Shown one piece after another: positions 1 through 61,907 of a stretch of 64,000 bases of DNA (position 1 is the first letter of the stretch; each line of letters starts with the position of its first letter). This DNA comes from an uncultured Chryseobacterium sp. (GTDB lineage: Bacteria > Bacteroidota > Bacteroidia > Palsa-965). The notes below the pieces were generated by a model, which worked only from the letters and a program-made list of their open reading frames with translations, had not been told where the DNA came from and searched no databases. The stretch lies in the NCBI GenBank assembly GCA_966211705.1, contig CBIHOC010000010.1:8339-72338 (forward strand). The letters are read 5' to 3'. The position numbers and the translations under genes were made by a program.

Positions 1-40
1 CCAAAACAAATGGTTGAAACCGGCGTGTTGTTGTAAATAT
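1..40 (-). repeat. Partial copy, cut by the window edge, of the ~100-bp cassette-boundary repeat (core AACAGCAyGC-N-GTTTTGGTATGAAGTTACGAA).
   Basis: Reverse complement reads ...aacaacacgccggtttcaaccatttgttttgg, which matches the core of the copies at 548-630 and 6325-6400. Confidence 0.45.
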
Positions 41-547: not shown

Positions 548-630
548 TTTCATGGGTCTTGCTCTTGGCTTTTTGCTTTAGTGCTACGTAACTTCATACG
601 AAACACGTAATTGAAACCGGCATGCTGTTC
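548..630 (-). repeat. Cassette-boundary intergenic repeat, minus-orientation copy.
   Basis: Reverse complement contains aacagcatgccggtttcaattacgtgtttcgtatgaagttacgta, matching the conserved core of the other copies. Confidence 0.6.
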
Positions 631-640
631 AGAATACTTC

Positions 641-5300: not shown

Positions 5301-5845
5301 TGCTGCGTATGCACCACCTCATGCGCCAGCAACTCCTTCCCACCCTTACTCCCCGGATCGTAATTCCCATCCTTGAAATAAATATCCTGCCCGTGCGTGA
5401 ACGCTTTCGCATTCACACTGTCCGCCATCTCGTGCGCGTTGCTGCCGGTGTGGATTTTCACATCGCTCAAATCCGCCCCCATCTTCCCGCCGATGTCCTG
5501 CTGCACGTTCTCCGGCAATGATTGTCCGCTGCCTTTGCTGCTGTTGAGCTGGCGCTGCAAACCTTCCGGCGCGTGCAACGTATCGCCTTCGGATTTCGAT
5601 TGCACGGAATTATTCGCAGATGAAAGCTGGCTGATGTTCGCGTCGCCGCCATCAACAACTTTGCGCGCGATCATATCCGCTTCCTGCTCCTGCGCGTCGC
5701 CGGGTTGTGAAACCTCAAGCTTCGCTTTGATCGACGCATTTTCCATCGCCATTTCCTCTTCTTCCTGGCGCATGACAAGCTCGCGCCGGCGACGGATCGT
5801 TTCGGCCTTCTCGTTCTTCGTATGGATCTTATTATAAAAACTCAT
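2303..5845 (-). CDS. DUF4157 (HExxH zincin-like) N-terminal domain eCIS-cargo or polymorphic-toxin protein, 1180 aa. Has a long coiled-coil/KE-rich region, a hydrophobic segment and a variable AT-rich C-terminal domain.
   Basis: N-terminus is near-identical to that of 6735-9500. Contains the motif LLAHEVVHTQQ. The C-terminal ~200 codons are AT-rich. Confidence 0.75.
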   Translation of the reverse strand: MSFYNKIHTKNEKAETIRRRRELVMRQEEEEMAMENASIKAKLEVSQPGDAQEQEADMIARKVVDGGDANISQLSSANNSVQSKSEGDTLHAPEGLQRQLNSSKGSGQSLPENVQQDIGGKMGADLSDVKIHTGSNAHEMADSVNAKAFTHGQDIYFKDGNYDPGSKGGKELLAHEVVHTQQNGGGVGRKVMRKAEDPAEKEGYVMLTPPKKGIVIGESPGLKANDNADAVVEVALEPDQLVALLYISEATGWYFARTLGPTSAFGYIQASSVKLSEEQVAPDVSENVTVENIPAGTGITTEEKKGIEKEKVKEEEKTDEEKTERKGEKKEKTGKGNLGTGELIKTAAPLNLKTASKTSGRKKRRAGKASAREELAAFKAEAQQLETEVDQTINEQIAQLSITASAEREKIKSESVIKRAQTELVYDLAITAVRNEMATAQKQTEDAHAYEKMRIKGFRLTELERLDLETAGEVKRLEEEGERLAKEAEQHAVDEEKRVRAIEKTQVSELFSYTTEQIDRFIREYDAEGRRGRMEDNLGEMRDDAIEGIKENNDALIEQIHEDAADLAERFREESKEAAESLPENKEEVAQSIRDLADQSIDALVNASAEPLAAYMASGEGVIAQLEMQKQQSLVNLDAMVTNAITEITTDEEKRTAELRQTLVNYKQETAQLVAGVESEVANSPDDVGIQIIHLAEDQLVKSTGEMQEEIVQSVAAKSVMYCEASQEVLYQLDCLRDEAQKGTETIKTEFSTQSVNIQASIIDIYTKAGDQANAGMKDIVNKSIAGLRQTANDSIVEWEADLAEGKTDITEKVDDALAENEELFNDTKDAIRDEAEQLASEWEATYYTRQILSVIGDILLAIGEAILWIIGIVIAIILLVLAIIALIVLLVLLIEALVALVAILVGALVEMIMAAAAWVVEGALFWITTELPLITAAFWTVMGNLGRSMLFRFISFAITSLGVVKILEGTFTSNLTPEQRKTMIAEGSFDVLLGALAEWQKVLQVFKNSKAYLQSMKAWMNTAKVETNVYKGTKSQFNDEFLDYDANMAKTVWNEQRSGLINIENATWAQKSFGNSFSKTGKFSGMTTDEVAAQLVSGEIKVADVSIDVVFRNGETVILNTRSSAALTKANIPRSQWNVVDRTGQEFFEQQLTDQFKRNGLSQGVNSIKQSGTQTVITK

Positions 5846-6290
5846 GATTCAAAAAGTCCAAAAAATTTAAAACCCAAACGCCGCCCCAACTCACAATCCC
5901 AGGGAGGTTTGATACCTCGTACATGATTACCCCTTTGGGATTTGGAATTTTTGGATTTATTTTTTCTATGGCGTTCTGTTCTCCTTCGCCAGCTCGCGGC
6001 GTATGCCTTTCACAAGATCGATGCCGCCGATCTCCGAAAGTCCTTTCACCGTGGCTTCCACGCAGCAGTATTTCAAAATGTTGCTTACGTTGGCGCCGGT
6101 CAATTCGTACTTCGATAATTTGTCGAACGAGATGTTTTCCGCATAGCTGAACCCTTCGGGCAACGCCTGTTTCCACAGCAGCATGCGCTCTTCTTTTGCC
6201 GGGCGCGGGAAATAGATCATGGCCTGGAAGCGGCGCGTCATGGCGGGATCGAGGTTGTGCTTCAGGTTGGTGGCGAGGATGGTGAGGCCG
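5300..6290. repeat. About 1-kb segmental duplication, copy A of the region at about 8955-9917: toxin 5' end plus intergenic region plus ATPase 3' end.
   Basis: Encoded N-terminal ~180 aa of both toxins and the ATPase C-terminal 91 aa are near-identical. Alignment is interrupted by an about 32-bp indel in the intergenic part and diverges at about 6287. Confidence 0.7.
5966..6287 (-). pseudogene. Truncated 3' fragment of an eCIS AAA ATPase gene, remnant of the segmental duplication.
   Basis: 91-aa ORF is identical to the C-terminus of the 9589-11151 product (MTRRFQAMIYFPRPAKEERMLLWKQ...KENRTP). Homology ends abruptly at about 6287. Confidence 0.6.
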
Positions 6291-6324
6291 GGGTAATTAA
6301 ATCGGGAGTTGGTTTTATGTTTGA

Positions 6325-6400
6325 CTTTATGCTAAAGCGCTTCGTAACTTCATACCAAAACACGTTGGTTAAAACCGGCGTGCTGTTCTGAAGTTCATTT
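6325..6400 (-). repeat. Cassette-boundary intergenic repeat, minus-orientation copy.
   Basis: Reverse complement contains aacagcacgccggttttaaccaacgtgttttggtatgaagttacgaagcgc. Confidence 0.6.
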
Positions 6401-6727
6401 CTTTTCATTCAGAAAGCTTCTCCAGTCTTCAAGCAATTGAATAAGCTCCACGGTTGAAATTTCTGTTTCGCTCTCTCCAAAATCATAGAATATTTTTGAT
6501 TTGTCCTTATAACTGTCGATGATGCAATAATCTGAACCTCCAAAAGAATACATCTCCATTTCGCCCTCTGCTACTTTCCGGACATTCTGGAGAACGTCCT
6601 CAACTCCTTCTATTGTTTGCAAAAAGCCGGAAGACAAGTCATAGAGCATTTCATAAGGGGGCTCAACATTTATCAATAGGATGCGTTCGTCAAGAACATT
6701 TTTTTCACTGAAATGGTATTTTATCAT
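6395..6727 (-). CDS. Hypothetical protein, 110 aa. Probable immunity protein for the adjacent EndoU-like toxin.
   Basis: Lies 8 bp downstream of the toxin stop on the same strand. Small, AT-rich. Confidence 0.5.
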   Translation of the reverse strand: MIKYHFSEKNVLDERILLINVEPPYEMLYDLSSGFLQTIEGVEDVLQNVRKVAEGEMEMYSFGGSDYCIIDSYKDKSKIFYDFGESETEISTVELIQLLEDWRSFLNEKK

Positions 6728-6734
6728 ATCGCGT

Positions 6735-9500
6735 TTAGAATTTAGGGAATGCAGAGATAATATTACCGCTTTTATCTAAATACATTTCAATCTTGGTACC
6801 ATCAGAAGCCGTCCCGAGCCAGGTATTGCCCTTTACAAAAATCTTATTGTTAAAGGCATGTGTTATTTCCTCCAGCACTTTTTGCTTATTCCAAGTGGGC
6901 CGAAAAAAGGACGAGTAGCCACCATTTGCAGTTTTACGGACCCAGTTGCCGGCTGCATCTTTCACTTCTACAATGGCCTTAAAAACCCCTTTGGGGCCAA
7001 TCTTTATTGTTCCGGGAACGATTCTCGCTGTACCACCTCTGATTGCATCAATATGATGTACTCCGGTCGCTTTTCCAGCTTTAATTTCACCTTCAAAAAT
7101 ATGCTTAATTGTTTTGGGCGTGATCTTACTCGTGATTTTTTTGACTTGGGTCACCACCTTCTTTGTCTTCGTCACCACTTTCTTCGCCGGTACAATCCCC
7201 TTCTTGAACGCCTTCTTCAACGGTCCGAGGCCTGGCATCTTTTTAGTCATTTTAGTGAACTTCGATACGATCTTCATCACCATCGTCATCACCTTGCTCA
7301 GCCACGTTACCGCTTTACCTCCCCATTTGATCGCAGTGATCGAGCCCCAGGAAACGACCGCCATTATTACCTCGGCAATGATGTAACCGATGAGCCAGCC
7401 CCAGTTGTAACCCGACACCCAAGGGTCGGGGGAGCTCAGCTTTTCGCCGAACGCGCTCATTTCTTTCCCGATCTCCTCGACAACCGCAGAAGCAATTTCC
7501 TTCATCTGTGCCCAGGTGAGGTTGCTCACAAATTCCCATATCTCTTTTGCCTTCTGGACGCCGTCACCGAAAAAGAGACTGTAGAGTACCTTAAAGGGCA
7601 TTGCCACCAGGTTGTAGATCGCAACGATCGTATCCCAGATGGACTCGAGGAACCCGACGACCAGTCCGCCGACGAAAGCAAGGCCGAACTGGATGCCCCA
7701 CCAGATAGATTCCAATATTTTCTTGACGGACTTCCAAATCTCGCCCGTGTAAGAACCCGAAGAAATGGTGCCTTTCTTTTCCAGCTCTATAATGTATTCT
7801 TTCGAAGGCATCCAGATCGTCATGCCTTTGATCAGGATCGGGTCGTGGTGGTACTGGTCGTTCTCTTCAAACCATCCGGGTGAGCTGGTATTTTTGATTT
7901 GCTTCAGGCGCCCTGAGATTCTATTGGCATAGACCACGCCGTTCACGTACATCCGTTTGTCCTCCTTGTCGCGCAGGCTGTAGTACTGCTTCACGAGCTG
8001 GGATAACGTCTGGCCCTTTTCGATGGTGTACAGGGTGGCATTAGGTTCCGGCGGGTTGAAAGCCAGCGCATGCTCTTCCACCCAGCCGCTTTTCGCGCCC
8101 GACTGGATAAAATACCAGCCGTTGTACTCCTTCGTCACGCTCACCCGCTCGTTCTGGTACACCATGAAACGATAGCCCAGCTCGCCGATGCCTTCCTGGC
8201 GCGGGATGGGTGTGAATTTCACCTTGAATTCGTTCTGGGCGACGATGCCGGTCTTCTTCACGTCATTACCGCGGCGGCCGAGCATGTACTGCACATCTTC
8301 GTCGTTGCGGATGATCGGCGTGAAGCCGCCCATGCGCTGCACAACTCCGGTGGCGGTTGCGATATATTCCTGGTTAAGCGCCACGAGGTGCAGCAGCTTC
8401 TGCGTGTCCGCTTCGCTGACCCCGGCGATGAGGTTGTTGATCGATGATGATGAGCTGGTGAACTGTCCTTTCGTATAGAACCACTTCTTCTCCGTATTGA
8501 TCCCTTTGATCTCGTATTCCAGCATGGCGCCGCTGCCCACGACGAGCAGGAGCTGGTGCTCCGACAGGTTGTCAAGCCCCGCAAGAGGCGCAGGAGCGGT
8601 GGTCGCATTGACGTTAATGTAGATCTCCCCACCGTCCTGCGGCTCGATCTTGATCTGCCGGCTGTAGCGGATATTCCGCATCGGGACAGGGTTGATCGGG
8701 CGGGTAGAGAACTCCGGGTCGAACGCTACGCTGGGGGCTTTTTGCCCGGCCGTATTCTTTTGTATACCGACGAAATTGTTCGACACCGAAATTTTCCCGA
8801 GCGGTGTAGCTGCCACGAGACGATAGCTGTCGGCAATCCCCCACACCATGGGCGAATCGAAAACATTCTTGAGCTCACTGAGCGGCTTGGGGTCTGTCTG
8901 GCGCTGAATTTTCCGCCCCACGCCATTTTGATTCTGCTGCGCCTGCCCGGCATTCTGCTGCGTATGCACAACCTCATGCGCCAGCAACTCCTTCCCACCC
9001 TTGCTCCCCGGATCATAATTCCCATCCTTGAAATAAATATCCTGTCCGTGCGTGAACGCCTTTGCATTCACACTGTCCGCCATCTCGTGCGCGTTGCTGC
9101 CGGTGTGGATTTTCACGTCGCTCAAATCCGCCCCCATCTTCCCGCCGATGTCCTGCTGCACATTCTCCGGCAACGATTGCCCGTTTCCTTTGCTGCTGTC
9201 GAGCTGGCGCTGCAAACCTTCCGGCGCACGCAACGTGTCGCCTTCAGATTTGGATTGCACGGAGCTGCTTGCAGGCGAAAGCTGGCTGATGTTCGCATCG
9301 CCGCCGTCGACCACTTTCCGCGCGATCATGTCTGCTTCCTGCTCCTGCGCGTCGCCGGGTTGCGAAACCTCAAGCTTCGCTTTGATCGACGCATTTTCCA
9401 TCGCCATTTCCTCTTCTTCCTGGCGCATGACAAGCTCGCGCCGGCGACGGATCGTTTCGGCCTTCTCGTTCTTCGTATGGATCTTATTATAAAAACTCAT
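6735..9500 (-). CDS. DUF4157 N-terminal domain toxin, 921 aa from MSFYNK. Has a central hydrophobic junction segment and a C-terminal domain resembling bacterial EndoU-type RNase toxins.
   Basis: Contains HExxH (LLAHEVVHTQQ). C-terminal HIFEGEIKAGKATGVHHIDAIRGG...GVFKAIVEVKD..GNWVRK...NGGYSSFFRPTWNKQKVLEEI matches the EndoU_bacteria signature as I recall it. Start chosen at the second ATG (9500) by homology to 2303-5845. Confidence 0.75.
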   Translation of the reverse strand: MSFYNKIHTKNEKAETIRRRRELVMRQEEEEMAMENASIKAKLEVSQPGDAQEQEADMIARKVVDGGDANISQLSPASSSVQSKSEGDTLRAPEGLQRQLDSSKGNGQSLPENVQQDIGGKMGADLSDVKIHTGSNAHEMADSVNAKAFTHGQDIYFKDGNYDPGSKGGKELLAHEVVHTQQNAGQAQQNQNGVGRKIQRQTDPKPLSELKNVFDSPMVWGIADSYRLVAATPLGKISVSNNFVGIQKNTAGQKAPSVAFDPEFSTRPINPVPMRNIRYSRQIKIEPQDGGEIYINVNATTAPAPLAGLDNLSEHQLLLVVGSGAMLEYEIKGINTEKKWFYTKGQFTSSSSSINNLIAGVSEADTQKLLHLVALNQEYIATATGVVQRMGGFTPIIRNDEDVQYMLGRRGNDVKKTGIVAQNEFKVKFTPIPRQEGIGELGYRFMVYQNERVSVTKEYNGWYFIQSGAKSGWVEEHALAFNPPEPNATLYTIEKGQTLSQLVKQYYSLRDKEDKRMYVNGVVYANRISGRLKQIKNTSSPGWFEENDQYHHDPILIKGMTIWMPSKEYIIELEKKGTISSGSYTGEIWKSVKKILESIWWGIQFGLAFVGGLVVGFLESIWDTIVAIYNLVAMPFKVLYSLFFGDGVQKAKEIWEFVSNLTWAQMKEIASAVVEEIGKEMSAFGEKLSSPDPWVSGYNWGWLIGYIIAEVIMAVVSWGSITAIKWGGKAVTWLSKVMTMVMKIVSKFTKMTKKMPGLGPLKKAFKKGIVPAKKVVTKTKKVVTQVKKITSKITPKTIKHIFEGEIKAGKATGVHHIDAIRGGTARIVPGTIKIGPKGVFKAIVEVKDAAGNWVRKTANGGYSSFFRPTWNKQKVLEEITHAFNNKIFVKGNTWLGTASDGTKIEMYLDKSGNIISAFPKF

Positions 9501-9588
9501 GCTTAAAAATTCCAAATATTACAAAACCCAAATCCCACCTCGTACATGATTTACCCTTTGGGAATTTGGAATTTCCGCTTTGTTTTTT

Positions 9589-36624: not shown

Positions 36625-37445
36625 ATGTTCGCTGAACCGCAGCAGAAGAACGTATCGCAATTGCAATCCCCGCAGTCGCAATCGCCCCACATCCAGGCAA
36701 AGCTGGAAGTAGGCGCCAAAGACGACCCGCAGGAGAAAGAAGCAGATGCCGTCGCCGACTCGGTGATGCGCATGAGCGAAAGTTCCGGCGCTGCAGGCGA
36801 TGCAACCGGCGTAAAGGCGCAGCAGGAAAGCCCCATGGCCCGCCTGCTGCGCCGTCATCCCGACGCGCCACGCCCGCAAATCATCCACCGTTTGGCCGAC
36901 GCGCCGAAAGCCCAGCCTGTTCAACGCGCGCCCGCAGCAATACAAGGCCCCGCATCACCCGCCCTCCGCAAAAAAGAAGGCGAAGAAAACGCCATTGCGA
37001 AAGCGCCGGAGCATGGGGCAGTGCTGCGAATGCACGATGCAGACGAAGAAACGGTGCAGAAGAAAGAGGATGAGGAAAGTGTGATGAAGATGGACGATGA
37101 GGAAGGTCTGCAGAAGAAAGACGAAGAAGAGAGCGTGATGAAAATGGACGACGGCGGAAAAGGCGGCACCGCTCCGGCTGCTGTCGAGCAAGGCATTCAG
37201 TCCGGCAAAGGCCAGGGAAACCCGCTCCCTGAAAATGTACAGCAGGACATCGGCGGAAAGATGGGCGCGGATTTGAGTGATGTGCGTGTGCATACGGGAA
37301 GCAACGCGCATGAGATGTCCACCGCGATCAACGCGAAAGCGTTCACGCACGGGCAGGATGTGTATTTCAAGAACGGAAATTATGATACCTCGAGCAGTTC
37401 GGGGAAGAAGTTATTGACGCACGAGCTGACGCATACGCAGCAGCA
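36625..37445 (+). repeat. About 820-bp segment duplicated at about 97% identity at 42313-43133. Covers the shared N-terminal part of toxin genes 3 and 4.
   Basis: Direct comparison of the two nucleotide stretches shows only scattered substitutions from the ATG through the HExxH motif. Confidence 0.8.
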
Positions 37446-39261
37446 GAAGGCGCCCGGCGTGCAAAGGAAGGTGCAGCGGGGGTTCTGGGGGGATGTCTGG
37501 GAAGGTGTTAAATCGGTCGGAAACTTTGTATACGAAAATACCGGCCTCAAGACGATCGTCGAAACCGGCAAAGACATTTATCACTGGGCCGTTGATTCCC
37601 CCGAAGAGTTCCAGGCCTACATGCAGGGGAAGCTCAAAGATAAGATCGACGAGATCAGGGCCCAGAAAGAGCCGACCGTGATGTTTACCGCCAAATACTG
37701 GGCAATGAAAACCATTGCCATCGCGATGAATCCGCTGTCGATCTTCGCGATGCCTTCCACGCAGGCCATCTGGGATATTTTCCGGCAGGCCAAGCTGGGT
37801 TATTATGAGCACCTCTACAACCTGGGCAACGAATACGTCCTTAAGAAGAATGAAGACACCGGTAAAATGGAGCGCGTGAAAAACGAAAGCTTCAAAAAGG
37901 GTGGATATGCCGAGGTGTTCTCGAACCAGATGCGCAACATGCTCGATCCCCGCTTTATGCTGGGCGAAGTGGTCGGCATCTTTAAAGGCATCGGCGGCTG
38001 GTTCGTCGACCTGTGGGAGATGATCAAATGGTTCGGTGAAATGATCTGGGGCGGCATCAAAGGCACCTGGAACCTGCTTGTCAATTTTGAGCCGCCTGCA
38101 TTTATGACACAAGCTGCCGATCTCGCAACATCAGCCGGTGCCTGGTTCAAAGAGAACGGGAAAGCAATCATGGAAGAGCTCGGCATGCTGCTCCAGAATC
38201 CCACCAAGCTCAAGGAGGTCCTCGCTGACCTGAGAGCTGCGATCAAAACCGGCGCAGAGGGCCTCGCGTACGGAGCCGGCCAGGGCATGGCCGCGCTGCA
38301 GGTGAAGATCATGAGCATGAGCGCTTACGACCAGGGCGAGATGGTGGGCAAAGCCATCGGCTACCTCATCCCCGAGATCATCATCGCCGTGTTTAGCGGC
38401 ACCATCGTGAACTGGATCAAAGGCGGCGTGAAAGCGCTGCAGGTTTTCGGCTCGGCGCTCAAAGGCCTCAAAGCCATCAAGGCGCTCATGAACGGCGCGC
38501 GCGGCGTGATGAATGCTTTTGAGAAAATGGGCCGCCTGTTCAAGGCCCTTGGCAGCAAGATCGGCGGCGCACTCGGCAAGGCGTTCGACAATGTGATGGA
38601 TTTCTTCAAAGGGATTTTGAAATGGGGAGATGAGGCGCCGGCAGGTGCGGTGGATGATGTGCATGCGCCGCATGACCGGACGCCGGACGGGCCGGATGGG
38701 CCGAGGAATGATGGGCCGGATGGGCCGAAGAATAAGCCCGACGCCGACAACGCTATGCGGAATTTAGCGTACGGAGAGATGGTAGCGGAAGTGATACAGA
38801 GTAATGCAGCGGATGAACCGATCGCGAAGTTCAAGAGCGATATTTATAAAATAAAACGTCATTTCCCGATCGTTAAGGCATTCAAGTTTGTTCCGGATGG
38901 AGCTGGAGGATTATACGTTTATATGAAAGCTAGCCCATGGCGACTTGGAGGGCATAAGAAGGCACCCAAATATTCTCCCACTTCAAAACACCAAAAAGGA
39001 GGATGGGGAACTGAAATGGATCTAGACGACATAACAGCTCAACATGTGTTAGACAACTCAACGGTACTCGGAAAACAGAGCTATGGCTATCATAATGGAA
39101 AAATATATGAATTCCAATATGATAATGTCGGCGGATGGCATGGGTATCCTATACCGTCAATTCAACTTATTTCAAAATCAGGAGGCACGAAAATTTTGAG
39201 GCAGTGGTTAAAAGATGGTATCTTGTCAAAACCTGATTATAATAAGTTAATTGGTGGGTGA
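36625..39261 (+). CDS. DUF4157 N-terminal domain eCIS cargo toxin, 878 aa, with the conserved hydrophobic junction segment and an AT-rich variable C-terminal toxin domain.
   Basis: Contains HExxH (LLTHELTHTQQQ). N-terminal ~270 aa are near-identical to those of 42313-45096. Has the junction motif GYLIPEIIIAVFSGTIVNWIKGG. GC content drops sharply at about 38760. Confidence 0.75.
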   Translation: MFAEPQQKNVSQLQSPQSQSPHIQAKLEVGAKDDPQEKEADAVADSVMRMSESSGAAGDATGVKAQQESPMARLLRRHPDAPRPQIIHRLADAPKAQPVQRAPAAIQGPASPALRKKEGEENAIAKAPEHGAVLRMHDADEETVQKKEDEESVMKMDDEEGLQKKDEEESVMKMDDGGKGGTAPAAVEQGIQSGKGQGNPLPENVQQDIGGKMGADLSDVRVHTGSNAHEMSTAINAKAFTHGQDVYFKNGNYDTSSSSGKKLLTHELTHTQQQKAPGVQRKVQRGFWGDVWEGVKSVGNFVYENTGLKTIVETGKDIYHWAVDSPEEFQAYMQGKLKDKIDEIRAQKEPTVMFTAKYWAMKTIAIAMNPLSIFAMPSTQAIWDIFRQAKLGYYEHLYNLGNEYVLKKNEDTGKMERVKNESFKKGGYAEVFSNQMRNMLDPRFMLGEVVGIFKGIGGWFVDLWEMIKWFGEMIWGGIKGTWNLLVNFEPPAFMTQAADLATSAGAWFKENGKAIMEELGMLLQNPTKLKEVLADLRAAIKTGAEGLAYGAGQGMAALQVKIMSMSAYDQGEMVGKAIGYLIPEIIIAVFSGTIVNWIKGGVKALQVFGSALKGLKAIKALMNGARGVMNAFEKMGRLFKALGSKIGGALGKAFDNVMDFFKGILKWGDEAPAGAVDDVHAPHDRTPDGPDGPRNDGPDGPKNKPDADNAMRNLAYGEMVAEVIQSNAADEPIAKFKSDIYKIKRHFPIVKAFKFVPDGAGGLYVYMKASPWRLGGHKKAPKYSPTSKHQKGGWGTEMDLDDITAQHVLDNSTVLGKQSYGYHNGKIYEFQYDNVGGWHGYPIPSIQLISKSGGTKILRQWLKDGILSKPDYNKLIGG

Positions 39262-39823
39262 CATGGAAAAGTTATACTTCGAACTCACACCTTGTGAGCA
39301 TCCATATGCAAATGAACCCAGCTCAAAAGCTGATGCCTGGAGTATAATTGCAATGAAGCACCTTTCTCTAGGTAAAGCTCATGCTATTTTTGAATGGCAA
39401 TGGGATGCCTTTCCGGTACTTGAGTGGTTTTTTACAACTAAGGAAGCTATGCTAACAGAAAACTTTCCATTTAATACGATTGAAGGAAGGTGTATTGCGG
39501 AGTGCAGGACGAAGCTGTATGCCTATGATTCATTTTTAAACGAGAAGGAAGAAGACGATTACCTCCTCAGCTTAGAAAACTATTTTTCAAAACACAGCTT
39601 TACGCTTCCGGGCACTCCTTTGCCGTTATTTTATATCGGCTTATTCAAGGGCAAAGGCGACATCTCTTTTTACAATTCAACAAATGAGCTTGAATACTAT
39701 TCCTTTAATATGCCATCGTTTATTAACGACACGGAAGAAACTATTAATATTTTTCTTATGGAATGGAAAAAGGAGTACGCACGGGATCTGGGATTAGAGA
39801 GATTAGCAACCATACTTAAATAA
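39251..39823 (+). CDS. Hypothetical protein, 190 aa. Probable cognate immunity protein.
   Basis: Overlaps the toxin stop. AT-rich. Followed by the cassette repeat. Confidence 0.5.
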   Translation: MVGDMEKLYFELTPCEHPYANEPSSKADAWSIIAMKHLSLGKAHAIFEWQWDAFPVLEWFFTTKEAMLTENFPFNTIEGRCIAECRTKLYAYDSFLNEKEEDDYLLSLENYFSKHSFTLPGTPLPLFYIGLFKGKGDISFYNSTNELEYYSFNMPSFINDTEETINIFLMEWKKEYARDLGLERLATILK

Positions 39824-39870
39824 CAGGGCTGAATACAGCGAAGTAAGCGGGAAGGGATGCAGACTCGATT

Positions 39871-39995
39871 TTCACTCAGGCAGGCGCCGCGGGAAAACAG
39901 CATGCGATTAGAATCGCATGTTTTGGTATGAAGTTACGAACGGCTTTCCCGAAAATCAATTTTAATTTTCAGCACACGAGCAGAGTGAAAAGGTC
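39871..39995 (+). repeat. Cassette-boundary intergenic repeat, plus-orientation copy 1.
   Basis: ttcactcaggcaggcgccgcgggaaaacagcatgcgattagaatcgcatgttttggtatgaagttacgaacggctttcccgaaaatcaattttaattttcagcacacg, with an internal near-palindrome. Confidence 0.75.
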
Positions 39996-40001
39996 GGTTA
40001 C

Positions 40002-40976
40002 GTGATCGGCTACCTCATCCCCGAGATCATCATCGCCGTGTTTAGCGGCACCATCGTGAACTGGATCAAAGGCGGCGTGAAAGCGCTGCAGGTTTTCGGC
40101 TCGGCGCTCAAAGGCCTCAAAGCCATCAAGGCGCTCATGAACGGCGCGCGCGGCGTGATGAATGCTTTTGAGAAAATGGGCCGCCTGTTCAAGGCCCTTG
40201 GCAGCAAGATCGGCGGCGCACTCGGCAAGGCGTTCGACAATGTGATGGATTTCTTCAAAGGGATTTTGAAATGGGGCGATGAGGCGCCGGCGGTTGCGGT
40301 GGATGATGTGCATGCGCCGCATGACCGGACGCCGGATGGGCCGGATGGGAAGAAGAATAAGAATGATCGTGATGATAATGAGTCAAAAGCAGCGGAACTG
40401 CTAAAGGCAAAAGCAATCTTAGAGTTTAATAATAAAAGTGGAAATTTAGGATTATTAAAGACGCAGCTTTCAGTCTTAGATTTTCGTTCTGATTTAATTA
40501 AACGATTTGAATATCGGCCTGATGGAGACGATGTGAATGTTTACATGATTGCCAGTGAAAATTATGTAGGAAAATATTCTGTCAGAGCACGTAGGAGCAA
40601 TCCGAATTCTCCAAAAAGGACAATTAAACACAAAGGAATAGATCATACGGGAGGAAGGATAGTAAAAAAGACTAAAACAAAAGTAGATTATATAATGAAG
40701 GACAGCTCAGAAGCAATGAATTGGGCAAGAAAACAACTTGGACATAATACAAAAAAAATATATGAAAATGGGAAACTAGTAGGCTGGGAAAATGTAACAA
40801 ATGGCAATAAGGTAAAATGGGGGCATTATGATTGGTACCAAGGAGGTGGTTCGTCAAACTTTCCACATCTAAACTATGAGTTCAATGGGAGTAAACTGAA
40901 AGGGCATTTATTTCTTGAAGATAAAATTCATAATACAGGCCTAATGGATGATTTTATTGCGTATTTTGATCTTTAA
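40002..40976 (+). CDS. Orphan toxin C-terminal cassette, 324 aa. Begins with the conserved junction segment, then a distinct AT-rich C-terminal toxin domain.
   Basis: First about 115 aa (GYLIPEIIIAVFSG...WGDEAPA) are near-identical to residues about 574-690 of the 36625-39261 product, then diverge. Confidence 0.55.
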   Translation: MIGYLIPEIIIAVFSGTIVNWIKGGVKALQVFGSALKGLKAIKALMNGARGVMNAFEKMGRLFKALGSKIGGALGKAFDNVMDFFKGILKWGDEAPAVAVDDVHAPHDRTPDGPDGKKNKNDRDDNESKAAELLKAKAILEFNNKSGNLGLLKTQLSVLDFRSDLIKRFEYRPDGDDVNVYMIASENYVGKYSVRARRSNPNSPKRTIKHKGIDHTGGRIVKKTKTKVDYIMKDSSEAMNWARKQLGHNTKKIYENGKLVGWENVTNGNKVKWGHYDWYQGGGSSNFPHLNYEFNGSKLKGHLFLEDKIHNTGLMDDFIAYFDL

Positions 40977-41396: not shown

Positions 41397-41405
41397 AAAT
41401 AGTGC

Positions 41406-41520
41406 TTTTCACTCAGGAATGCGCCGCGGGAAAACAGATTATAATCGCATGTTTTGGTATGAAGTTACGAACGATTTTCCCGAAAATCAATTTTAATTTT
41501 TCGCACACGACTAGGGCGAA
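41406..41520 (+). repeat. Cassette-boundary intergenic repeat, plus-orientation copy 2.
   Basis: ttttcactcaggaatgcgccgcgggaaaacagattataatcgcatgttttggtatgaagttacgaacgattttcccgaaaatcaattttaatttttcgcacacg. Confidence 0.75.
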
Positions 41521-42045: not shown

Positions 42046-42153
42046 TAATGGGCGTTGTCAGGAACAGGGGGCGTTGTTAAGAATTACTTCCTGACGACTC
42101 CATTTTTTTGTCGGAAAATACGATTGCAAATCAACCCTATAATCCTCTGTCCC

Positions 42154-42272
42154 TTTTCACTCAGGAATGTGCCGCGGGAAAACAGATTATAATCGCATGT
42201 TTTGGTATGAAGTTACGAACGATTTTCCCTGGAAGTCAATTCTGATTTCCACCTGCGAGCAGGGCGAAATAG
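42154..42272 (+). repeat. Cassette-boundary intergenic repeat, plus-orientation copy 3, here preceding a full-length toxin gene.
   Basis: ttttcactcaggaatgtgccgcgggaaaacagattataatcgcatgttttggtatgaagttacgaacgattttccctggaagtcaattctgatttccacctgcgagcagggcgaaatag. Confidence 0.75.
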
Positions 42273-42312: not shown

Positions 42313-45096
42313 ATGTTCGCTGAACCGCAGCAGAAGAACGTATCACAATTGCAATCGCCGCAGTCGCAATCGCCCCACATCCAGCCGAAGCTGGAAGTGG
42401 GCGCCAAAGACGACCCGCAGGAGAAAGAAGCAGATGCCGTCGCCGACTCGGTGATGCGCATGAGCGAAAGTTCCGGCGCTGCAGGCGATGCAACCGGCGT
42501 AAAGGCGCAGCAGGAAAGCCCCATGGCCCGCCTGCTGCGCCGCCATCCCGACGCGCCCCGCCCGCAAATCATCCACCGTTTGGCCGACGCGCCGAAAGCC
42601 CTGCCTGTTCAACGCGCGCCCGCAGCGATACAAGGCCCCGCATCGCCTGCCCTCCGCAAAAAAGAAGACGAAGAAAACGCCATTGCGAAAGCGCCGGAGC
42701 ATGGCGCGATCCTGCGAATGCACGATGCAGACGAAGAAACGGTGCAGAAGAAAGAGGACGAGGAAAGCGTGATGAAGATGGACGACGAGGAAGGTCTGCA
42801 GAAGAAAGAGGATGAAGAGAGCGTGATGAAAATGGACGACGGCGGAAAAGGCGGCACCGCTCCGGCTGCTGTCGAGCAAGGCATTCAGTCCGGCAAAGGC
42901 CAGGGAAACCCGCTCCCTGAAAATGTACAGCAGGACATCGGCGGAAAGATGGGCGCGGATTTGAGTGATGTGCGTGTGCATACGGGAAGCAACGCGCATG
43001 AGATGTCCACCGCGATCAACGCGAAAGCGTTCACGCACGGGCAGGATGTGTATTTCAAGAACGGAAATTATGATACCTCGAGCAGTTCGGGGAAGAAGTT
43101 ATTGACGCACGAGCTGACGCATACGCAGCAGCAGTCCGCCCGCGGCGGAGGCGGGATGAACAGGAAGATCCAGCGGTTCGAATCTAACGAGCACCGGAAA
43201 ATGGGCGATGAAGGCTCGGGAGGAAAACAGATCGTTTTATCACCTTATTTCACGATTTCATATGGCGATATGACGGCTCTTGCCGGAGATTGGTTCGGCT
43301 CTGTAGAAGAAATCACCGAGTTGGCTAAAAAGCGGGGTAAAGTTACATTCGGCAAAACAGTTGAGGATATACTCTCTTATGGAAATAAGTATCAGTATTT
43401 CAACCAACCCGGTACAGTTGATGAGATCAAATATGCTGTTGTTGTCGGCATACACGGGAAAACGAATTATAAAAATATTTTTGGTGCCGAGGTTCCTAAG
43501 AAAGTGGATGCCCGGGCTAAACTTTTATTGCAACGGAACTGGGACCATTTTACAAATCCCAGGGCCGGGGATGCTCAGCTGGCCCATAAGGATAAGCTTA
43601 ACCTGAGAGAAAATGATTTTCCTCTGAATAATGCGACGGCATATAGAGATAATCATGAAAGAGCAATACAGGAAGCGGTCAAGGCCGGGAAAAATAACAG
43701 CGGCTTGAATACAGCAATGTTATATGAATCGTTCGCCAGCCATTTTTTAACAGATGCTTATGCCTCGGGGCACATACGGGCAGAACGATTCGATATTGCA
43801 AAATATTGGAATGAGAAATACCCCATGTTTTATTTTAATATGCTGCGCTGGATAGCTGAAAAAATGGCGCAACATATTCAAAAAAACAAATACTACGGAC
43901 TCACTAAGCATTTTGTTTTCGGGCAGGTTGTTGATACGCTCAACGAGATGCTGGGTAGTGATCCTGAAACTTTATTGGGAGATATTATCGGGGGGGCAAT
44001 TCATGATCTCGACAATAAACGTGGTGTTGCTTCAAAAGTAGATAAAGCACAAAAAGCGGTTCGGTTGTTTGGAGATGGCCAGGTGCTGGACGACCAGGAC
44101 AGGCTGCTGGCCCAGGGCATGGAAACGTTTAATCTGGTTACTGCGGCAGTAAAAGTCAGTCTTAAAGATATTACTGCAGCTTACGAAAAAGGGAAAAACG
44201 GGCAGGATGTCAACAGCGTCTTAAAATCGCTTCAAACAAAAGATCTGTACAAAGCCGAACAACTATGGCCAGCAGCGGTAAGCGACACCGACCCGTTGCA
44301 GAAGGAATCTCCAGCCGTCAAATGGAAAGCTGACACTTACGAAAAACTGATTGAGCTGGCGGATGTCAAGGACGCTATCAAATTGCTCCTGGACGAAAAG
44401 ACAAAGACGATCAAGGACTCCGTCACTTTCGACGAGGATTATAAAAAAACGGCTTTCGAAGAAAGTGTAGTAACCAATCTCCAGGGAGATGCAGGTATTG
44501 AATCATTGAAACAAATCATCCATTATTACCCTGGGATTATATTAGACCTCAGCGGATTCTTCGGTTCAGATGACGACGATGAAGCATATGACTATTATAA
44601 AGAAACGAAAGACAGAAGTGCATTAGGCTCGCTGACAAGCAAACAACGCGAAGGCCTTATTAAAAAAGCATTGAGCGGTCCAACTGTCGGTGATGACGAC
44701 GTCATGATTGCCGATATCCTGAGCAATACACCAGAGGCTGATGTATATGATATAATTACCGGGCTCGATGAGGATGGCTATACCGGATGGGCCTGGATAT
44801 ATGACGATTTGTCGGGGCAAGAATTAGAAGATGTAATCCGTAAAGCCGGACCTGCCTATTGGAAACAAGCCACGTTCGATGAAAAATGGAATGAATGCTA
44901 CAGGATGATCGGGATAACCAATGTTTATTTTCCGGGCATCGCTTCTCTTTCTGACTTCGAAAACAAGGTTGTTATGGTTATTTTACGATCGGATAAGACC
45001 AAGATTGAGAACCAGCTTCTGAATGTCGATTTCCAGTTTGAGAAAGTGCTTAAGAGTGCATATAAATACGAAATAAGAGAGCTTGTTACTCCCTGA
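42313..45096 (+). CDS. DUF4157 N-terminal domain toxin, 927 aa, with a large distinct C-terminal domain. Paralog of 36625-39261.
   Basis: N-terminal ~270 aa are near-identical to those of 36625-39261, including HExxH. Sequence downstream of about 43133 is unrelated and AT-richer. Confidence 0.75.
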   Translation: MFAEPQQKNVSQLQSPQSQSPHIQPKLEVGAKDDPQEKEADAVADSVMRMSESSGAAGDATGVKAQQESPMARLLRRHPDAPRPQIIHRLADAPKALPVQRAPAAIQGPASPALRKKEDEENAIAKAPEHGAILRMHDADEETVQKKEDEESVMKMDDEEGLQKKEDEESVMKMDDGGKGGTAPAAVEQGIQSGKGQGNPLPENVQQDIGGKMGADLSDVRVHTGSNAHEMSTAINAKAFTHGQDVYFKNGNYDTSSSSGKKLLTHELTHTQQQSARGGGGMNRKIQRFESNEHRKMGDEGSGGKQIVLSPYFTISYGDMTALAGDWFGSVEEITELAKKRGKVTFGKTVEDILSYGNKYQYFNQPGTVDEIKYAVVVGIHGKTNYKNIFGAEVPKKVDARAKLLLQRNWDHFTNPRAGDAQLAHKDKLNLRENDFPLNNATAYRDNHERAIQEAVKAGKNNSGLNTAMLYESFASHFLTDAYASGHIRAERFDIAKYWNEKYPMFYFNMLRWIAEKMAQHIQKNKYYGLTKHFVFGQVVDTLNEMLGSDPETLLGDIIGGAIHDLDNKRGVASKVDKAQKAVRLFGDGQVLDDQDRLLAQGMETFNLVTAAVKVSLKDITAAYEKGKNGQDVNSVLKSLQTKDLYKAEQLWPAAVSDTDPLQKESPAVKWKADTYEKLIELADVKDAIKLLLDEKTKTIKDSVTFDEDYKKTAFEESVVTNLQGDAGIESLKQIIHYYPGIILDLSGFFGSDDDDEAYDYYKETKDRSALGSLTSKQREGLIKKALSGPTVGDDDVMIADILSNTPEADVYDIITGLDEDGYTGWAWIYDDLSGQELEDVIRKAGPAYWKQATFDEKWNECYRMIGITNVYFPGIASLSDFENKVVMVILRSDKTKIENQLLNVDFQFEKVLKSAYKYEIRELVTP

Positions 45097-45150
45097 AAAA
45101 CGCGAAAGAATATCTCAAAATAGCTACATTGAAAAACAAATCCGGTTAAA

Positions 45151-45621
45151 ATGAAATGGCTGATTTCTTTGTTTGTTGTTTTAATAGGCGTTGGCCTGTT
45201 ATATGCACCGGTTGCTTCCGTTAAACGGGACACTATTGATATTTCTTTCAAGGGGATAACTCAAAAAACCTATCCCGGTACAGTAACTGTATCCGGTAAA
45301 AAAATACTTAACGATTGGCCCTCTGCAGCACTTGTGATTTTCTCCCTGTTTTTGCCCTTGCTCCTCCAGGTCCAGGGATTATTCTTTTCCGAACAATCAT
45401 GGAATATCCTCCGTTTTCTTTTACTTTTTGAGCTGCTGATTGCCCTGGCCGGTATTTTTTCCACCTGGCTCTCCATCGAAACGATACTGATGGTCTCATC
45501 CGGCACATGGCGCTGGGGACGTTACGCGCTGTTGTTCATCGAAACGTTTTATGCTGTCGTTTTACTTTTACTGGTGACCCCTGCAGGTAGAAATCTGCGT
45601 ACACTGTTGCTTTATCGTTAG
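45151..45621 (+). CDS. Hypothetical polytopic membrane protein, 156 aa. Probable immunity protein.
   Basis: Four or five hydrophobic helices (LISLFVVLIGVGLLY...). Immediately downstream of the toxin. Confidence 0.5.
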   Translation: MKWLISLFVVLIGVGLLYAPVASVKRDTIDISFKGITQKTYPGTVTVSGKKILNDWPSAALVIFSLFLPLLLQVQGLFFSEQSWNILRFLLLFELLIALAGIFSTWLSIETILMVSSGTWRWGRYALLFIETFYAVVLLLLVTPAGRNLRTLLLYR

Positions 45622-45622
45622 T

Positions 45623-45706
45623 CTTTTCACTCAGGAATGCGCCGCGGGAAAACAGCATGCGATTATAATCGCATGTTTTGATATGAAGTTACGAACGGCT
45701 TTCCCC
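45623..45706 (+). repeat. Cassette-boundary repeat, plus-orientation copy 4. Its 3' part is deleted so the repeat is fused directly to junction-motif coding sequence.
   Basis: cttttcactcaggaatgcgccgcgggaaaacagcatgcgattataatcgcatgttttgatatgaagttacgaacggctttccc runs straight into ccgagatcatcatcgccgtg. Confidence 0.7.
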
Positions 45707-61658: not shown

Positions 61659-61689
61659 AAGTAGTGAGCAAATGTACTGCGAACGAGGG

Positions 61690-61855: not shown

Positions 61856-61907
61856 ATAATTCCTGCAATCCATAACCATTACCGCCAACCGCTGCTGCCA
61901 ACCGCTG

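What the first reader, a model, noticed from the sequence alone, without database searches (positions are those of the whole stretch)
39871..39995. Family of about 100-bp noncoding repeats (at least 7 copies) demarcating every toxin/immunity cassette on both sides of the eCIS
Copies at 1-40 (partial), 548-630 and 6325-6400 (minus orientation) and at 39871-39995, 41406-41520, 42154-42272 and 45623-45706 (plus orientation) share the core AACAGCAyGC-N-GTTTTGGTATGAAGTTACGAA, with a near-palindromic hairpin in the plus-side copies. Each copy lies right after an immunity-like gene and right before the next orphan module or toxin gene, always in the local transcription direction. It could be a recombination site for cassette swapping, an internal promoter or RNA leader for orphan modules, or an RNA-processing element.
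Basis: seen in the sequence. Interest (0 to 1): 0.8.

Follow-up and report, generated by a model that had tools for sequence, protein, structure and literature searches.

The report
Boundary repeat between stacked toxin–immunity cassettes
A roughly 100-base non-coding repeat really does sit at the joints between stacked toxin–immunity gene cassettes on both sides of a phage-tail-like injection system in an uncultured Bacteroidota bacterium; it is best read as the conserved joint at which spare toxin modules are stacked and reshuffled, like the repeats in other toxin or immunity gene arrays, but how it works is not proven.

Summary
Seven copies of one repeat family (R) lie in the window, all inside the two toxin arrays and all pointing in the local transcription direction. 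None is expected by chance.

R is composite:
- an AT-rich left part that starts 0-11 nt after an immunity-like gene's stop codon in 6 of 8 cases;
- a variable hairpin;
- an almost invariant 22-nt box, TGTTTTGGTATGAAGTTACGAA.

On the plus side, R is directly followed by GC-rich DNA copied from the interior of toxin 1 (38327-38709). These are orphan toxin modules of the CDI/Rhs kind, carried here by DUF4157 (eCIS_core) cargo toxins.

Contigs from other samples show the same cassettes in other orders, with the box and the toxin fragment as the conserved joint. A truncated copy lies in a third toxin locus.

The box was not found as a real repeat in GTDB genomes, JGI metagenomes or IMG/VR.

Tests that came back negative or unsupportive:
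- No recombinase, Rfam family or consensus promoter.
- No attC-like fold.
- The hairpin is terminator-grade in only 3 of 8 copies.
- The box's ATG has an unremarkable start context.

Best reading: a cassette-boundary joint used in recombinational stacking of cassettes. What reads the box is unknown. It is a new variant of a known kind, of moderate interest.

The parts
39869..39972 (+). R copy 1 (plus-type, complete). Left part 39869-39900, hairpin CATGCGAT-TAGA-ATCGCATG 39901-39920, invariant box 39919-39940, right extension to 39972. It starts 45 nt after the stop of the 186/190-aa gene (39823).
39973..40358 (+). Toxin-derived 'core-prime' segment that heads orphan module 1. It is 95% identical to toxin 1 interior 38327-38709, with a 272-nt identical run. 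The orphan ORF (GTG 40002 to 40976, 324 aa = P0001) has no eCIS_core domain.
41405..41503 (+). R copy 2 (plus-type). A 7-nt deletion removes the left hairpin arm. It starts 8 nt after the stop of the 136/138-aa gene. It is followed by the 85-nt core-prime remnant 41507-41591 of the truncated orphan 2.
42153..42270 (+). R copy 3 (plus-type, same 7-nt deletion). Its last ~20 nt (42251-42270) are toxin-derived. It then joins the 42-nt leader of full-length toxin 2 (ATG at 42313).
45623..45705 (+). R copy 4 (plus-type, hairpin intact, 3'-truncated). It starts 1 nt after the stop of the 156-aa gene. It is fused to core-prime remnant 45704-45895, which is 98% identical to 38370-38561.
6300..6400 (-). 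R copy 5 (minus-type). Its conserved part starts 7 nt after the stop of the 110-aa gene that follows the EndoU toxin. It is followed by a duplicated 3' fragment of the AAA ATPase gene (5914-6297 = 9537-9920) and then the 1180-aa toxin.
565..634 (-). R copy 6 (minus-type, box with a 1-nt deletion and 1 further substitution). It starts 11 nt after the stop of the 162-aa gene. It is followed by a remnant of a barstar-like gene start and then the 157-aa gene.
1..45 (-). R copy 7 (minus-type), cut by the window edge. It is complete in L070 9043-9110 and L071 1763-1830, where a Barstar gene follows it.
38327..38709 (+). Conserved GC-rich (60%) pre-toxin segment inside toxin 1 (36625-39261). It is the segment copied at the head of the three orphan modules, and it is the left homology for swapping the C-terminal toxin (CT) domain with its immunity gene.
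36625..39823 (+). Full-length toxin 1 (878 aa, PF13699 eCIS_core at residues 200-276) and its downstream 186/190-aa putative immunity gene.
42313..45621 (+). Full-length toxin 2 (927 aa, eCIS_core; its first 835 nt are 97% identical to toxin 1) and the 156-aa putative immunity gene.
2303..9515 (-). Two tandem eCIS_core toxins on the minus side: 926 aa with an EndoU C-terminal domain (6735-9515) and 1180 aa (2303-5845). They sit in ~1-kb direct repeats that are 91.5% identical and include the N-terminal toxin coding region.

Best explanation
R is the conserved non-coding joint between stacked cassettes, each made of a C-terminal toxin (CT) domain and its immunity gene. The cassettes belong to a polymorphic-toxin array whose carrier proteins are DUF4157 (eCIS_core) cargo toxins of an extracellular contractile injection system (eCIS).

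Shown:
- Each unit is an AT-rich block made of a toxin domain, an immunity gene and R.
- On the plus side this block is followed by a GC-rich copy of an interior segment of toxin 1.
- The array is therefore a stack of displaced ('orphan') toxin modules.

Inferred mechanism:
- A piece of DNA carrying [conserved toxin segment, new toxin domain, new immunity gene, R, toxin fragment] can recombine by ordinary homologous recombination with both crossovers inside the resident toxin gene.
- This installs the new toxin end and pushes the old one downstream, behind a copy of R.
- That explains why every plus-side orphan has the same R/toxin-fragment junction.
- The repeated joints then allow deletion, fusion and reordering.

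R itself is a composite:
- a left part tied to the upstream gene's end;
- a hairpin plus T-run that is a plausible intrinsic terminator in some copies only;
- a 22-nt box tied to the downstream module.

The box appears to be under selection, but what reads it (a protein on DNA, or the ribosome or an RNase on RNA) is not identified.
For: Placement and direction:
- All 7 copies lie in the 21 kb of toxin arrays and none in the other 43 kb. All are co-directional with the genes.
- Left ends lie 0, 1, 8, 7, 7 and 11 nt after unrelated stop codons. The two exceptions are 45 and 107 nt.

Orphan structure:
- 39976-40358, 41507-41591 and 45704-45895 are 92-98% identical to toxin 1 interior 38327-38709. 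The R/toxin junction is the same in copies 1, 2 and 3.
- A 272-nt identical run between the main gene and orphan 1 points to ongoing gene conversion.

Base composition:
- conserved toxin parts: 55-60% GC;
- toxin C-terminal domains and immunity genes: 34-44% GC;
- R: 37-46% GC.

Comparison with other samples:
- L110 carries the intact version of the window's truncated orphan 2, plus the 85-aa gene, on a different toxin backbone (92% to P0130). This is followed by a rearranged R and an orphan-1-like toxin fragment. The shared sequence begins at the T-run of the box and is 92.5% identical, against 99.1% for the cassette itself.
- L109 joins toxin 1 to orphan toxin domain 1 through the shared segment.
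- L070 lacks the EndoU cassette and its R, with a clean switch inside the ~1-kb repeats.
- A truncated R (left 40 nt only) follows a stop codon in a third DUF4157 toxin locus from one of the same samples (L069).

Selection on the box:
- It is 22/22 identical between the plus-type copies and minus copy 6325, whereas the adjacent 27 columns are about 70% identical (my count on the alignments).
- It survives in L110 with a completely different hairpin in front of it.

Established knowledge: orphan CT/immunity modules that keep a stretch of the main gene and can recombine with it are known for CDI and Rhs (PMC3150448, PMC3967940).
Against: - No recombination event is caught unambiguously at R itself.
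- L109 and L070 switch inside long exact repeats (272 nt and 138 nt). The 'deleted' segment of L109 is present in the same sample as a low-coverage contig (L112). Both could therefore be assembly collapses rather than real recombinants.
- On the minus side no toxin fragment follows R. R alone (about 70 nt at 80% identity) is a poor substrate for RecA, so the homologous-recombination model does not explain those copies.
- That model also does not explain why unrelated immunity genes end within about 10 nt of R.
- It gives no reason for the 22-nt box to be invariant.
- All evidence comes from one species-level lineage. Two more distant relatives show the same gene layout, but their DNA could not be read.
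Confidence: 0.45

Rival explanations
1. R is a dedicated site-specific recombination site, like an integron attC or the repeats of rAID arrays (rAID = recombinase-associated acquired interbacterial defence). A recombinase encoded elsewhere in the genome inserts and excises cassettes at the hairpin or box, so that each inserted cassette ends up bounded by one copy.
For: - The element is tightly apposed to unrelated stop codons: 0-11 nt in 6 of 8 cases. This is as in integron cassettes.
- It is present in the minus-side array, where no other homology exists between cassettes.
- The left and right halves are separable. L069 has only the left half. L110 keeps the right half behind a different left half.
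- Three independent rearrangement end-points fall inside the ~24-nt palindrome: the L069 breakpoint after the left arm, the L110 breakpoint in the loop, and the 7-nt deletion of the left arm.
- Arms of 8 nt around a 4-6-nt spacer are the usual layout of tyrosine-recombinase sites (own knowledge).
- rAID arrays in Bacteroidales have repetitive intergenic sequences 'reminiscent of integrons' (bioRxiv 10.1101/471110).
Against: - No recombinase is found in the 64-kb window or in 8 kb beyond the minus array.
- The invariant box has no dyad symmetry.
- There is no R''/R' consensus and no whole-element hairpin. DNA folding z-scores range from +0.5 to -2.2.
- The palindrome is degenerate or deleted in 5 of 8 copies.
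- The same 85-aa cassette has different sequence from 8 nt after its stop codon in two strains. It therefore does not carry its own site, as an integron cassette would.
- Palindromes are generic deletion hot spots (own knowledge).
Confidence: 0.2
2. R is an expression adaptor carried between cassettes. The hairpin plus U-run ends or stabilises the upstream toxin-immunity transcript. The box is a Shine-Dalgarno-less translation start that opens a short leader ORF (MKLR...). Ribosomes translating that leader are handed to whatever gene lies downstream, by termination-reinitiation. Alternatively, it is an RNA-processing site.
For: - The ATG is present in all 8 copies, and the box spans about -10 to +12 around it.
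- The short ORF ends overlapping the GTG start of orphan 1 (GTGA at 40002-40005). The same is true in L110.
- In copy 565-634, the short ORF ends overlapping the ATG of a barstar-like start remnant (ATGA).
- After the last minus copy, the short ORF ends 5 nt before the Barstar ATG. This covers every case in which an intact gene other than a full-length toxin follows R closely.
- Three unrelated hairpin sequences occupy the same position directly before the T-run. The L110 one (-16.7 kcal/mol) is stronger than all 728 background windows.
- The organism uses no Shine-Dalgarno sequence.
Against: - The ATG context scores only at the 70th-89th percentile of all ATGs in the window. It lacks the A at -3 and the A-rich leader typical of this organism's gene starts.
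- The leader peptides are not conserved beyond five residues. Substitutions are not clearly synonymous: 3 at third codon positions against 4 at first or second positions among three copies.
- The hairpin is absent or weak in 5 of 8 copies.
- No promoter is found, and there is no Rfam match.
- The stop/start coincidences were noticed after the fact. By my rough estimate each has a chance probability of about 5-17%.
Confidence: 0.2
3. R is a neutral relic, or a generic genome-wide repeat (REP- or MITE-like) that merely accumulates in this recombination-prone region and has no role of its own.
For: - Only about 90 kb of this genome could be inspected.
- Copies are decaying in various ways: truncations, a 7-nt deletion, degenerate boxes.
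- Folding is not significant.
Against: - There are 7 copies in 21 kb of arrays, plus a fragment in a third toxin locus.
- There are none in about 43 kb of other window sequence, nor in about 20 kb of non-toxin sequence in L069 and L070.
- Orientation strictly follows transcription on both sides.
- The box is 22/22 identical between subfamilies whose flanks are about 70% identical or cannot be aligned.
- By inspection, there are no terminal inverted repeats or target-site duplications shared by the copies.
Confidence: 0.1

Closest known systems
Orphan toxin/immunity module arrays downstream of CDI (cdiA-CT/cdiI) and Rhs genes (Poole et al. 2011, PMC3150448; Koskiniemi et al. 2014, PMC3967940)
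   Same: - A full-length polymorphic toxin is followed by its immunity gene.
- Downstream lie further toxin-domain/immunity pairs that lack the N-terminal part and a proper start.
- These pairs keep a stretch of the main gene's conserved sequence, through which they can recombine with it.
- The variable parts have foreign base composition.
   Different: - The carriers are DUF4157 (eCIS_core) cargo toxins inside an eCIS gene cluster, not CdiA or Rhs proteins.
- There is no VENN or PxxxxDPxGL boundary motif.
- Each module is also bounded by a conserved ~100-nt non-coding element. I am not aware of this as a described feature of CDI or Rhs orphan arrays (own knowledge, not checked in the literature).
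[quoted passage not shown]
   Same: - The phylum is the same.
- Both are arrays of co-oriented short genes for orphan immunity proteins.
- Both have low GC content and conserved, repetitive intergenic sequence motifs.
- The minus-side tail of this locus (162 aa | R | 157 aa | R | Barstar) looks just like this.
   Different: - rAID is defined by a XerD-family tyrosine recombinase at the head of the array. None is present here.
- The present arrays hang on active full-length toxins of an eCIS and include toxin fragments.
- The rAID motif sequence itself could not be compared, because it is available only as a figure.
Integron attC sites / chromosomal integron repeats
   Same: - A repeated element lies directly 3' of each cassette ORF.
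- All copies are in one orientation.
- It is partly palindromic.
- Copies are highly similar within one array, as in sedentary chromosomal integrons.
   Different: - There is no IntI, attI or Pc.
- There are no R''/R' core sites.
- The element does not fold into one long imperfect hairpin.
- The same cassette does not carry the same downstream element in two strains.
REP/BIME-type intercistronic hairpin repeats and intrinsic terminators
   Same: - A hairpin followed by a T-run lies right after the last gene of a transcription unit.
- Such hairpins can end or stabilise the upstream mRNA.
   Different: - The element is restricted to toxin arrays in the sequence available.
- The hairpin is dispensable in most copies.
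- The most conserved part is the 17 nt downstream of the T-run.

Membership tests
CDI/Rhs-type orphan toxin-immunity arrays (as an architecture) | Full-length polymorphic toxin with a conserved N-terminal part, a variable C-terminal toxin domain and a downstream immunity gene | tested here: met
   - There are four eCIS_core toxins whose N-terminal coding DNA is 91-97% identical between the two toxins of each side.
- Their C-terminal ends are unrelated, for example EndoU in one.
- The immunity role of the downstream genes is inferred from position only.
CDI/Rhs-type orphan toxin-immunity arrays (as an architecture) | Downstream modules that lack the N-terminal part but retain a segment homologous to the main gene | tested here: met
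   39976-40358, 41507-41591 and 45704-45895 match 38327-38709 at 92-98%. The orphan ORF has no ATG and no eCIS_core domain.
CdiA or Rhs protein families | CdiA (FHA repeats, VENN motif) or Rhs (YD repeats, PxxxxDPxGL) carrier protein | tested here: not met
   The Pfam scan of all four toxins gives only eCIS_core, plus EndoU in one and a sub-threshold GW hit.
rAID system | XerD-family tyrosine recombinase gene at the head of the array | tested here: not met
   No recombinase domain is found in any ORF scanned in the window or in L070 beyond the array.
rAID system | Array of co-oriented short orphan immunity genes with low GC and conserved intergenic motifs | tested here: met
   - Co-oriented genes of 85-190 aa are separated by R.
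- Their GC content is 36-44%, against 52% for the whole window.
- Barstar and, in a relative, SUKH-4 are recognised immunity families.
rAID system | Sequence identity of the intergenic motif with the published rAID motif | not testable with these tools
   The motif is shown only as an image (Fig. S4 of 10.1101/471110).
Integron / attC | IntI integrase with attI and Pc next to the array | tested here: not met
   No integrase is found (same calls as for rAID). The arrays are flanked by eCIS genes.
Integron / attC | attC architecture: R''/L''...L'/R' boxes (RYYYAAC ... GTTRRRY) folding into one long imperfect hairpin | tested here: not met
   - By inspection, neither strand has the core-site consensus at the ends.
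- Single-strand DNA folds pair only the central 8-10 bp, with z-scores from +0.5 to -2.2.
Intrinsic (Rho-independent) terminator | Stable GC-containing hairpin immediately followed by a T-run | tested here: inconclusive
   - Met in L110 (-16.7 kcal/mol).
- Marginal in copies 39869 and 45623 (-9.4, 6th percentile of the background).
- Not met in 41405, 42153, 565-634 and 1-45.
- Weak in 6300-6400.
REP/BIME or MITE | Many copies dispersed through the genome; for MITEs also terminal inverted repeats and target-site duplications | tested here: inconclusive
   - No copy lies outside toxin loci in about 90 kb of this organism.
- There are no shared terminal inverted repeats or target duplications, by inspection.
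- The rest of the genome could not be read.
Rfam RNA families | Match to a curated covariance model | tested here: not met
   There are no hits at gathering thresholds in the window. In E-value mode on two copies, one gave no match and the other gave only chance-level matches with E above 1.

The most novel reading that the evidence does not exclude
The 22-nt box, with its flanking palindrome, is the attachment site of a previously undescribed cassette-capture system. That system would load new toxin-immunity payload cassettes into eCIS gene clusters of Bacteroidota. It would be an integron-like mechanism whose recombinase is encoded elsewhere in the genome, possibly related to the one behind rAID immunity arrays.
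Probability: 0.15. Interest if true: 0.8.

Novelty: new variant of a known kind. Interest (0 to 1): 0.45.

Why it matters
- Payload diversification in eCISs. These systems are being engineered as protein-delivery devices, but how their natural payload sets diversify is poorly described. This locus shows that DUF4157-type cargo toxins form orphan-module stacks like CDI and Rhs toxins. It also shows that the stacks use a dedicated-looking non-coding joint.
- If the joint is actively recognised, it would define a portable cassette boundary for swapping payloads. It would also link eCIS cargo islands mechanistically to the immunity-gene arrays of gut Bacteroidales.
- If the joint is only passive homology plus a terminator, the locus is still a clear natural example of how toxin arsenals and the matching immunity genes are stockpiled.

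Tried and rejected
1. Exact-pattern scans with the box.
 - I scanned GTDB species genomes, JGI metagenome contigs and IMG/VR.
 - All 99 loci matched only the 17-24 nt of the pattern itself.
 - Five identical hits in a Latescibacterota MAG are copies of an unrelated, probably mobile, repeat.
 - The family is therefore not detectable outside this lineage by exact match. Diverged relatives would be missed.

2. Relatives found through proteins.
 - The two best (JGI samples 3300071358 and 3300050046) have the same array layout, but no DNA could be fetched.
 - L107 and L108 carry single toxin-immunity pairs without R.

3. Promoters.
 - The sigma-70-type scan found no site inside any R.
 - The strict Bacteroidetes pattern TTTG-N17-23-TANNTTTG has no match anywhere in the window, so it cannot tell either way.
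 - A perfect TATAAT in the hairpin loop of three plus copies has no -35 partner and is absent from the minus-type copies. I rejected it as a conserved feature.

4. Sigma-54, ECF and LytTR-like readings of the box, by eye. The spacing or key bases do not fit. Not pursued.

5. Conserved RNA or DNA structure.
 - Folds of both strands are weakly significant or not significant.
 - Two compensatory changes between subfamilies keep a hairpin possible. However, the hairpin is lost in several copies.

6. Coding potential. Short ORFs from the box ATG are not conserved beyond MKLR[T/S], and the synonymous/non-synonymous pattern is inconclusive.

7. Start-codon context model built from 54 gene starts. The R ATG is unremarkable.

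8. Pfam at relaxed thresholds for the small neighbouring proteins. Nothing was found.

9. Organism name through cluster look-up. No names were returned.

10. Reading L110 as an allele of toxin 2. Rejected: its backbone matches P0130 and not toxin 2.
Full report

Yes. The 21-nt core occurs five times with at most 1 mismatch, against 0 expected in shuffles. A relaxed pattern adds a sixth copy at 588-604. The window starts inside a seventh copy, which is complete in two other contigs of the same organism. A profile built from eight copies finds exactly these seven places in the window and no others.

- The four plus-strand copies are 80-95% identical over 83-118 nt. The three minus-strand copies are about 80% identical.
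- The two groups share only about 50 nt.
- Within those 50 nt, the 22-nt box TGTTTTGGTATGAAGTTACGAA is identical between the plus-type copies and minus copy 6325. The 27 columns before it are about 70% identical, and everything else cannot be aligned.

**2. Context**

The window carries a complete extracellular contractile injection system (eCIS):
- two sheath genes, a tube gene, a VgrG-like spike and baseplate J;
- a Pvc16-like gene, two AAA ATPases and a CIS tape-measure protein.

Four long proteins carry the PF13699 eCIS_core (DUF4157) domain. Geller et al. associate this domain with eCIS toxins (PMC8213781).
- The two toxins on each side share their N-terminal coding region (97% and 91.5% DNA identity). 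They then diverge completely; one ends in an EndoU nuclease.
- Gene starts lack Shine-Dalgarno sequences and prefer A at -3. DUF4294 is present, and T9SS sorting domains occur in a contig from one of the same samples. Homologues are labelled Bacteroidota.
- The organism is known only from metagenome assemblies.

**3. What follows the repeat: the key point**

Directly after the plus-side copies comes DNA copied from the interior of toxin 1:
- 38327-38709 equals 39976-40358 at 95%;
- its first 85 nt equal 41507-41591 at 92%;
- 38370-38561 equals 45704-45895 at 98%.

The homology starts about 5 codons further upstream at protein level: FSAHEQSEK in the orphan against MSAYDQGEM in toxin 1.

These are orphan toxin modules, as described for CDI and Rhs loci (PMC3150448, PMC3967940). 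Their state:
- orphan 1 is intact (324 aa plus a 136-aa gene);
- orphan 2 is internally deleted;
- orphan 3 is a stub.

Copy 42153 keeps 20 nt of the toxin fragment and then joins the leader of full-length toxin 2. Minus copy 6325 is followed by a duplicated 3' piece of the ATPase gene and then the second toxin.

Base composition is a mosaic:
- conserved toxin parts: 55-60% GC;
- toxin C-terminal domains and immunity genes: 34-44% GC;
- R: 37-46% GC.

R therefore belongs compositionally to the exchangeable cassettes.

**4. Anatomy of R**

- *Left part.* CTTTTCACTCAGGAATGCGCCGCGGGAAAACAG occurs in the plus type only. It begins 1, 8, 45 and 107 nt after the preceding stop codon. In the minus type the conserved part begins 7, 7 and 11 nt after the stop.
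- *Palindrome.* It is perfect (8-10 bp) in two plus copies and lacks its left arm in the other two. In the minus type it is imperfect, with two compensatory differences.
- *Box.* It starts with the T-run and contains an ATG in all copies.
- *Right extension.* On the plus side, about 30 nt run into the toxin fragment.

**5. Other contigs of the lineage**

- *L069* comes from one of the samples that hold this locus, but is a different locus. It has a DUF4157 toxin followed by small ORFs. It holds only the left 40 nt of R, directly after a stop codon, and similarity ends at the left arm of the palindrome.
- *L110* comes from another study. It has the intact form of the window's truncated orphan 2, with its 85-aa gene, on a different toxin backbone (92% to P0130). 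The downstream order is:
  1. a box-like ATGAAGGTTACGAAA, 8 nt after the stop;
  2. rearranged pieces of the palindrome;
  3. a new strong GC hairpin;
  4. the invariant T-run and box, the right extension and an orphan-1-like toxin fragment.

  The cassette is 99.1% identical to the window, whereas the joint is 92.5% identical. The two therefore have different histories.
- *L109* joins toxin 1 to orphan toxin domain 1 through the shared segment. *L070* lacks the EndoU cassette and its R. Both switch cleanly inside exact repeats of 272 nt and 138 nt. Because the segment missing from L109 is present in the same sample at low coverage (L112), these two may be real recombinants or assembly collapses. 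I do not rely on them.
- Two more distant relatives (toxins 84% and 54% identical) show the same gene layout, with orphan fragments and intergenic gaps of 100-250 nt. Their DNA could not be fetched.

**6. Distribution**

Exact-match scans with the box returned only chance-length matches in GTDB genomes, JGI metagenomes and IMG/VR. In the roughly 90 kb available from this organism, R occurs only in toxin loci. The whole genome was not available.

**7. Tests of function**

| Question | Result |
|---|---|
| Known RNA family? | No Rfam match |
| Stable fold? | z-scores from +0.5 to -2.2 on either strand, as RNA or DNA; no attC-like whole-element hairpin |
| Terminator? | Hairpin before the T-run is strong in L110 (-16.7 kcal/mol, beyond all 728 background windows), marginal in two plus copies (-9.4, 6th percentile) and absent or weak in five copies |
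| Promoter? | None by the sigma-70-type scan; the strict Bacteroidetes pattern occurs nowhere in the window |
| Recombinase nearby? | None in the window or beyond the minus array |

A terminator role is thus possible for some copies but is not the common denominator.

*Translation.* The box ATG opens short ORFs beginning MKLR[T/S]. They end in three notable places:
- overlapping the GTG of orphan 1 (GTGA; the same in L110);
- overlapping the ATG of a barstar-like start remnant;
- 5 nt before the Barstar ATG.

This covers all cases where an intact gene other than a full-length toxin follows R closely. Against this, the ATG context ranks only at the 70th-89th percentile of all ATGs under a model built from 54 gene starts. 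The peptides are not conserved either.

**8. Interpretation**

*Shown:*
- R marks cassette joints.
- The plus-side array is a stack of displaced toxin modules headed by copies of a toxin 1 segment.
- Cassette content and order differ between strains, while the box plus toxin fragment is kept.
- The main gene and orphan 1 share a 272-nt identical run, which suggests gene conversion.

*Inferred:*
- DNA carrying [conserved segment, new toxin end, new immunity gene, R, toxin fragment] can integrate with both crossovers inside the resident toxin gene. This pushes the old toxin end downstream behind R.
- That would propagate one R/toxin junction through the array, as observed.

*Left unexplained by this model:*
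- the minus-side copies, which have no toxin fragment;
- the tight apposition of R to unrelated stop codons;
- the invariance of the box.

These three points keep two rivals alive: a site-specific, integron- or rAID-like site, and an expression adaptor. I put the recombinational-joint reading at 0.45, the two rivals at 0.2 each, and a neutral or generic repeat at 0.1.

**9. Comparison with known systems**

- In architecture and likely dynamics, this works like CDI/Rhs orphan arrays. It is not a member of those protein families, because it has no CdiA or Rhs features.
- The minus-side tail looks like a rAID array: co-oriented orphan immunity genes, low GC and repetitive intergenic motifs (10.1101/471110, PMC12247911). 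It lacks the defining recombinase.
- It fails the attC tests.

**10. Verdict**

The finding is real and is correctly located. It is a new variant of a known kind: an orphan toxin/immunity array with a conserved inter-cassette element, here attached to eCIS cargo toxins. Interest is moderate. It would be high only if the box proves to be an actively recognised cassette-capture site.

Noticed in passing
window 1223-1762 (-); L070 7326-7865: A stand-alone Tpt1/KptA RNA 2'-phosphotransferase gene (179 aa, E = 9e-33) sits inside the minus-side toxin array, between small unknown genes. It may be an orphan toxin domain or an immunity-type enzyme. In L070 it is split into 54 + 123 aa by a frameshift.
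   Followed up: partly
window 5296-6297 and 8951-9920: A ~1-kb direct repeat (91.5% identical) covers the 3' end of the AAA ATPase gene, the intergenic region and the toxin N-terminal coding region. One copy of the intergenic part carries a 31-nt insertion. The divergence suggests that the two toxin units came from different strains rather than from a recent duplication.
   Followed up: partly
window 12165-12958: Five to six tandem 150-nt (50-codon) repeats, 64-79% identical, lie inside the first eCIS gene (11529-13355, no Pfam hit).
   Followed up: no
window 46128-46558; 37042-37151; 42730-42839: Acidic tandem peptide repeats occur in two places. A 36/39-nt unit encoding MDEEKSMNAAGS-like repeats lies in the 511-aa gene after the plus array. 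A 27-nt unit (DEE.V.KK) lies in the N-terminal regions of toxins 1 and 2. The 511-aa protein may be another eCIS cargo that shares an N-terminal packaging-type region.
   Followed up: no
window 61699-61905: A run of 13-nt GGCGGTGGCGGTT-like tandem repeats has an inverted partner at 61874-61905. It lies at the 5' end of the biotin carboxylase ORF (60171-61901, minus strand).
   Followed up: no
window 39868-39880 and 39982-39993: In copy 1 only, the first 9-10 nt of R (TTTTCACTC) are the exact inverted repeat of GAGTGAAAA, which lies 10 nt upstream of the orphan's GTG. Compared with toxin 1, orphan 1 has four substitutions here that create this complementarity. It also has a 5-of-6-nt change (AAAGCC to TACGTG) that creates the GTG start and the overlapping TGA.
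   Followed up: partly
window 42046-42152: The 107 nt between the 85-aa gene and R copy 3 are unique. They contain their own hairpin (GTCAGGAAG...CTTCCTGAC) followed by a run of seven T, which looks like a terminator. In L110 this segment is replaced from 8 nt after the stop codon.
   Followed up: partly
L010, L014, L017, L021, L026 (Candidatus Latescibacterota MAG CBDCXV01): Five identical copies of a sequence at least 178 nt long (the stretch compared) happen to contain the 18-mer GTTTCGTATGAAGTTACG. It is probably an insertion sequence and is unrelated to R.
   Followed up: partly
tool behaviour: the search for homologous proteins returned no hit longer than about 1.75 times the query length. 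Full-length toxins appeared only when the full-length protein was used as the query.
   Followed up: yes
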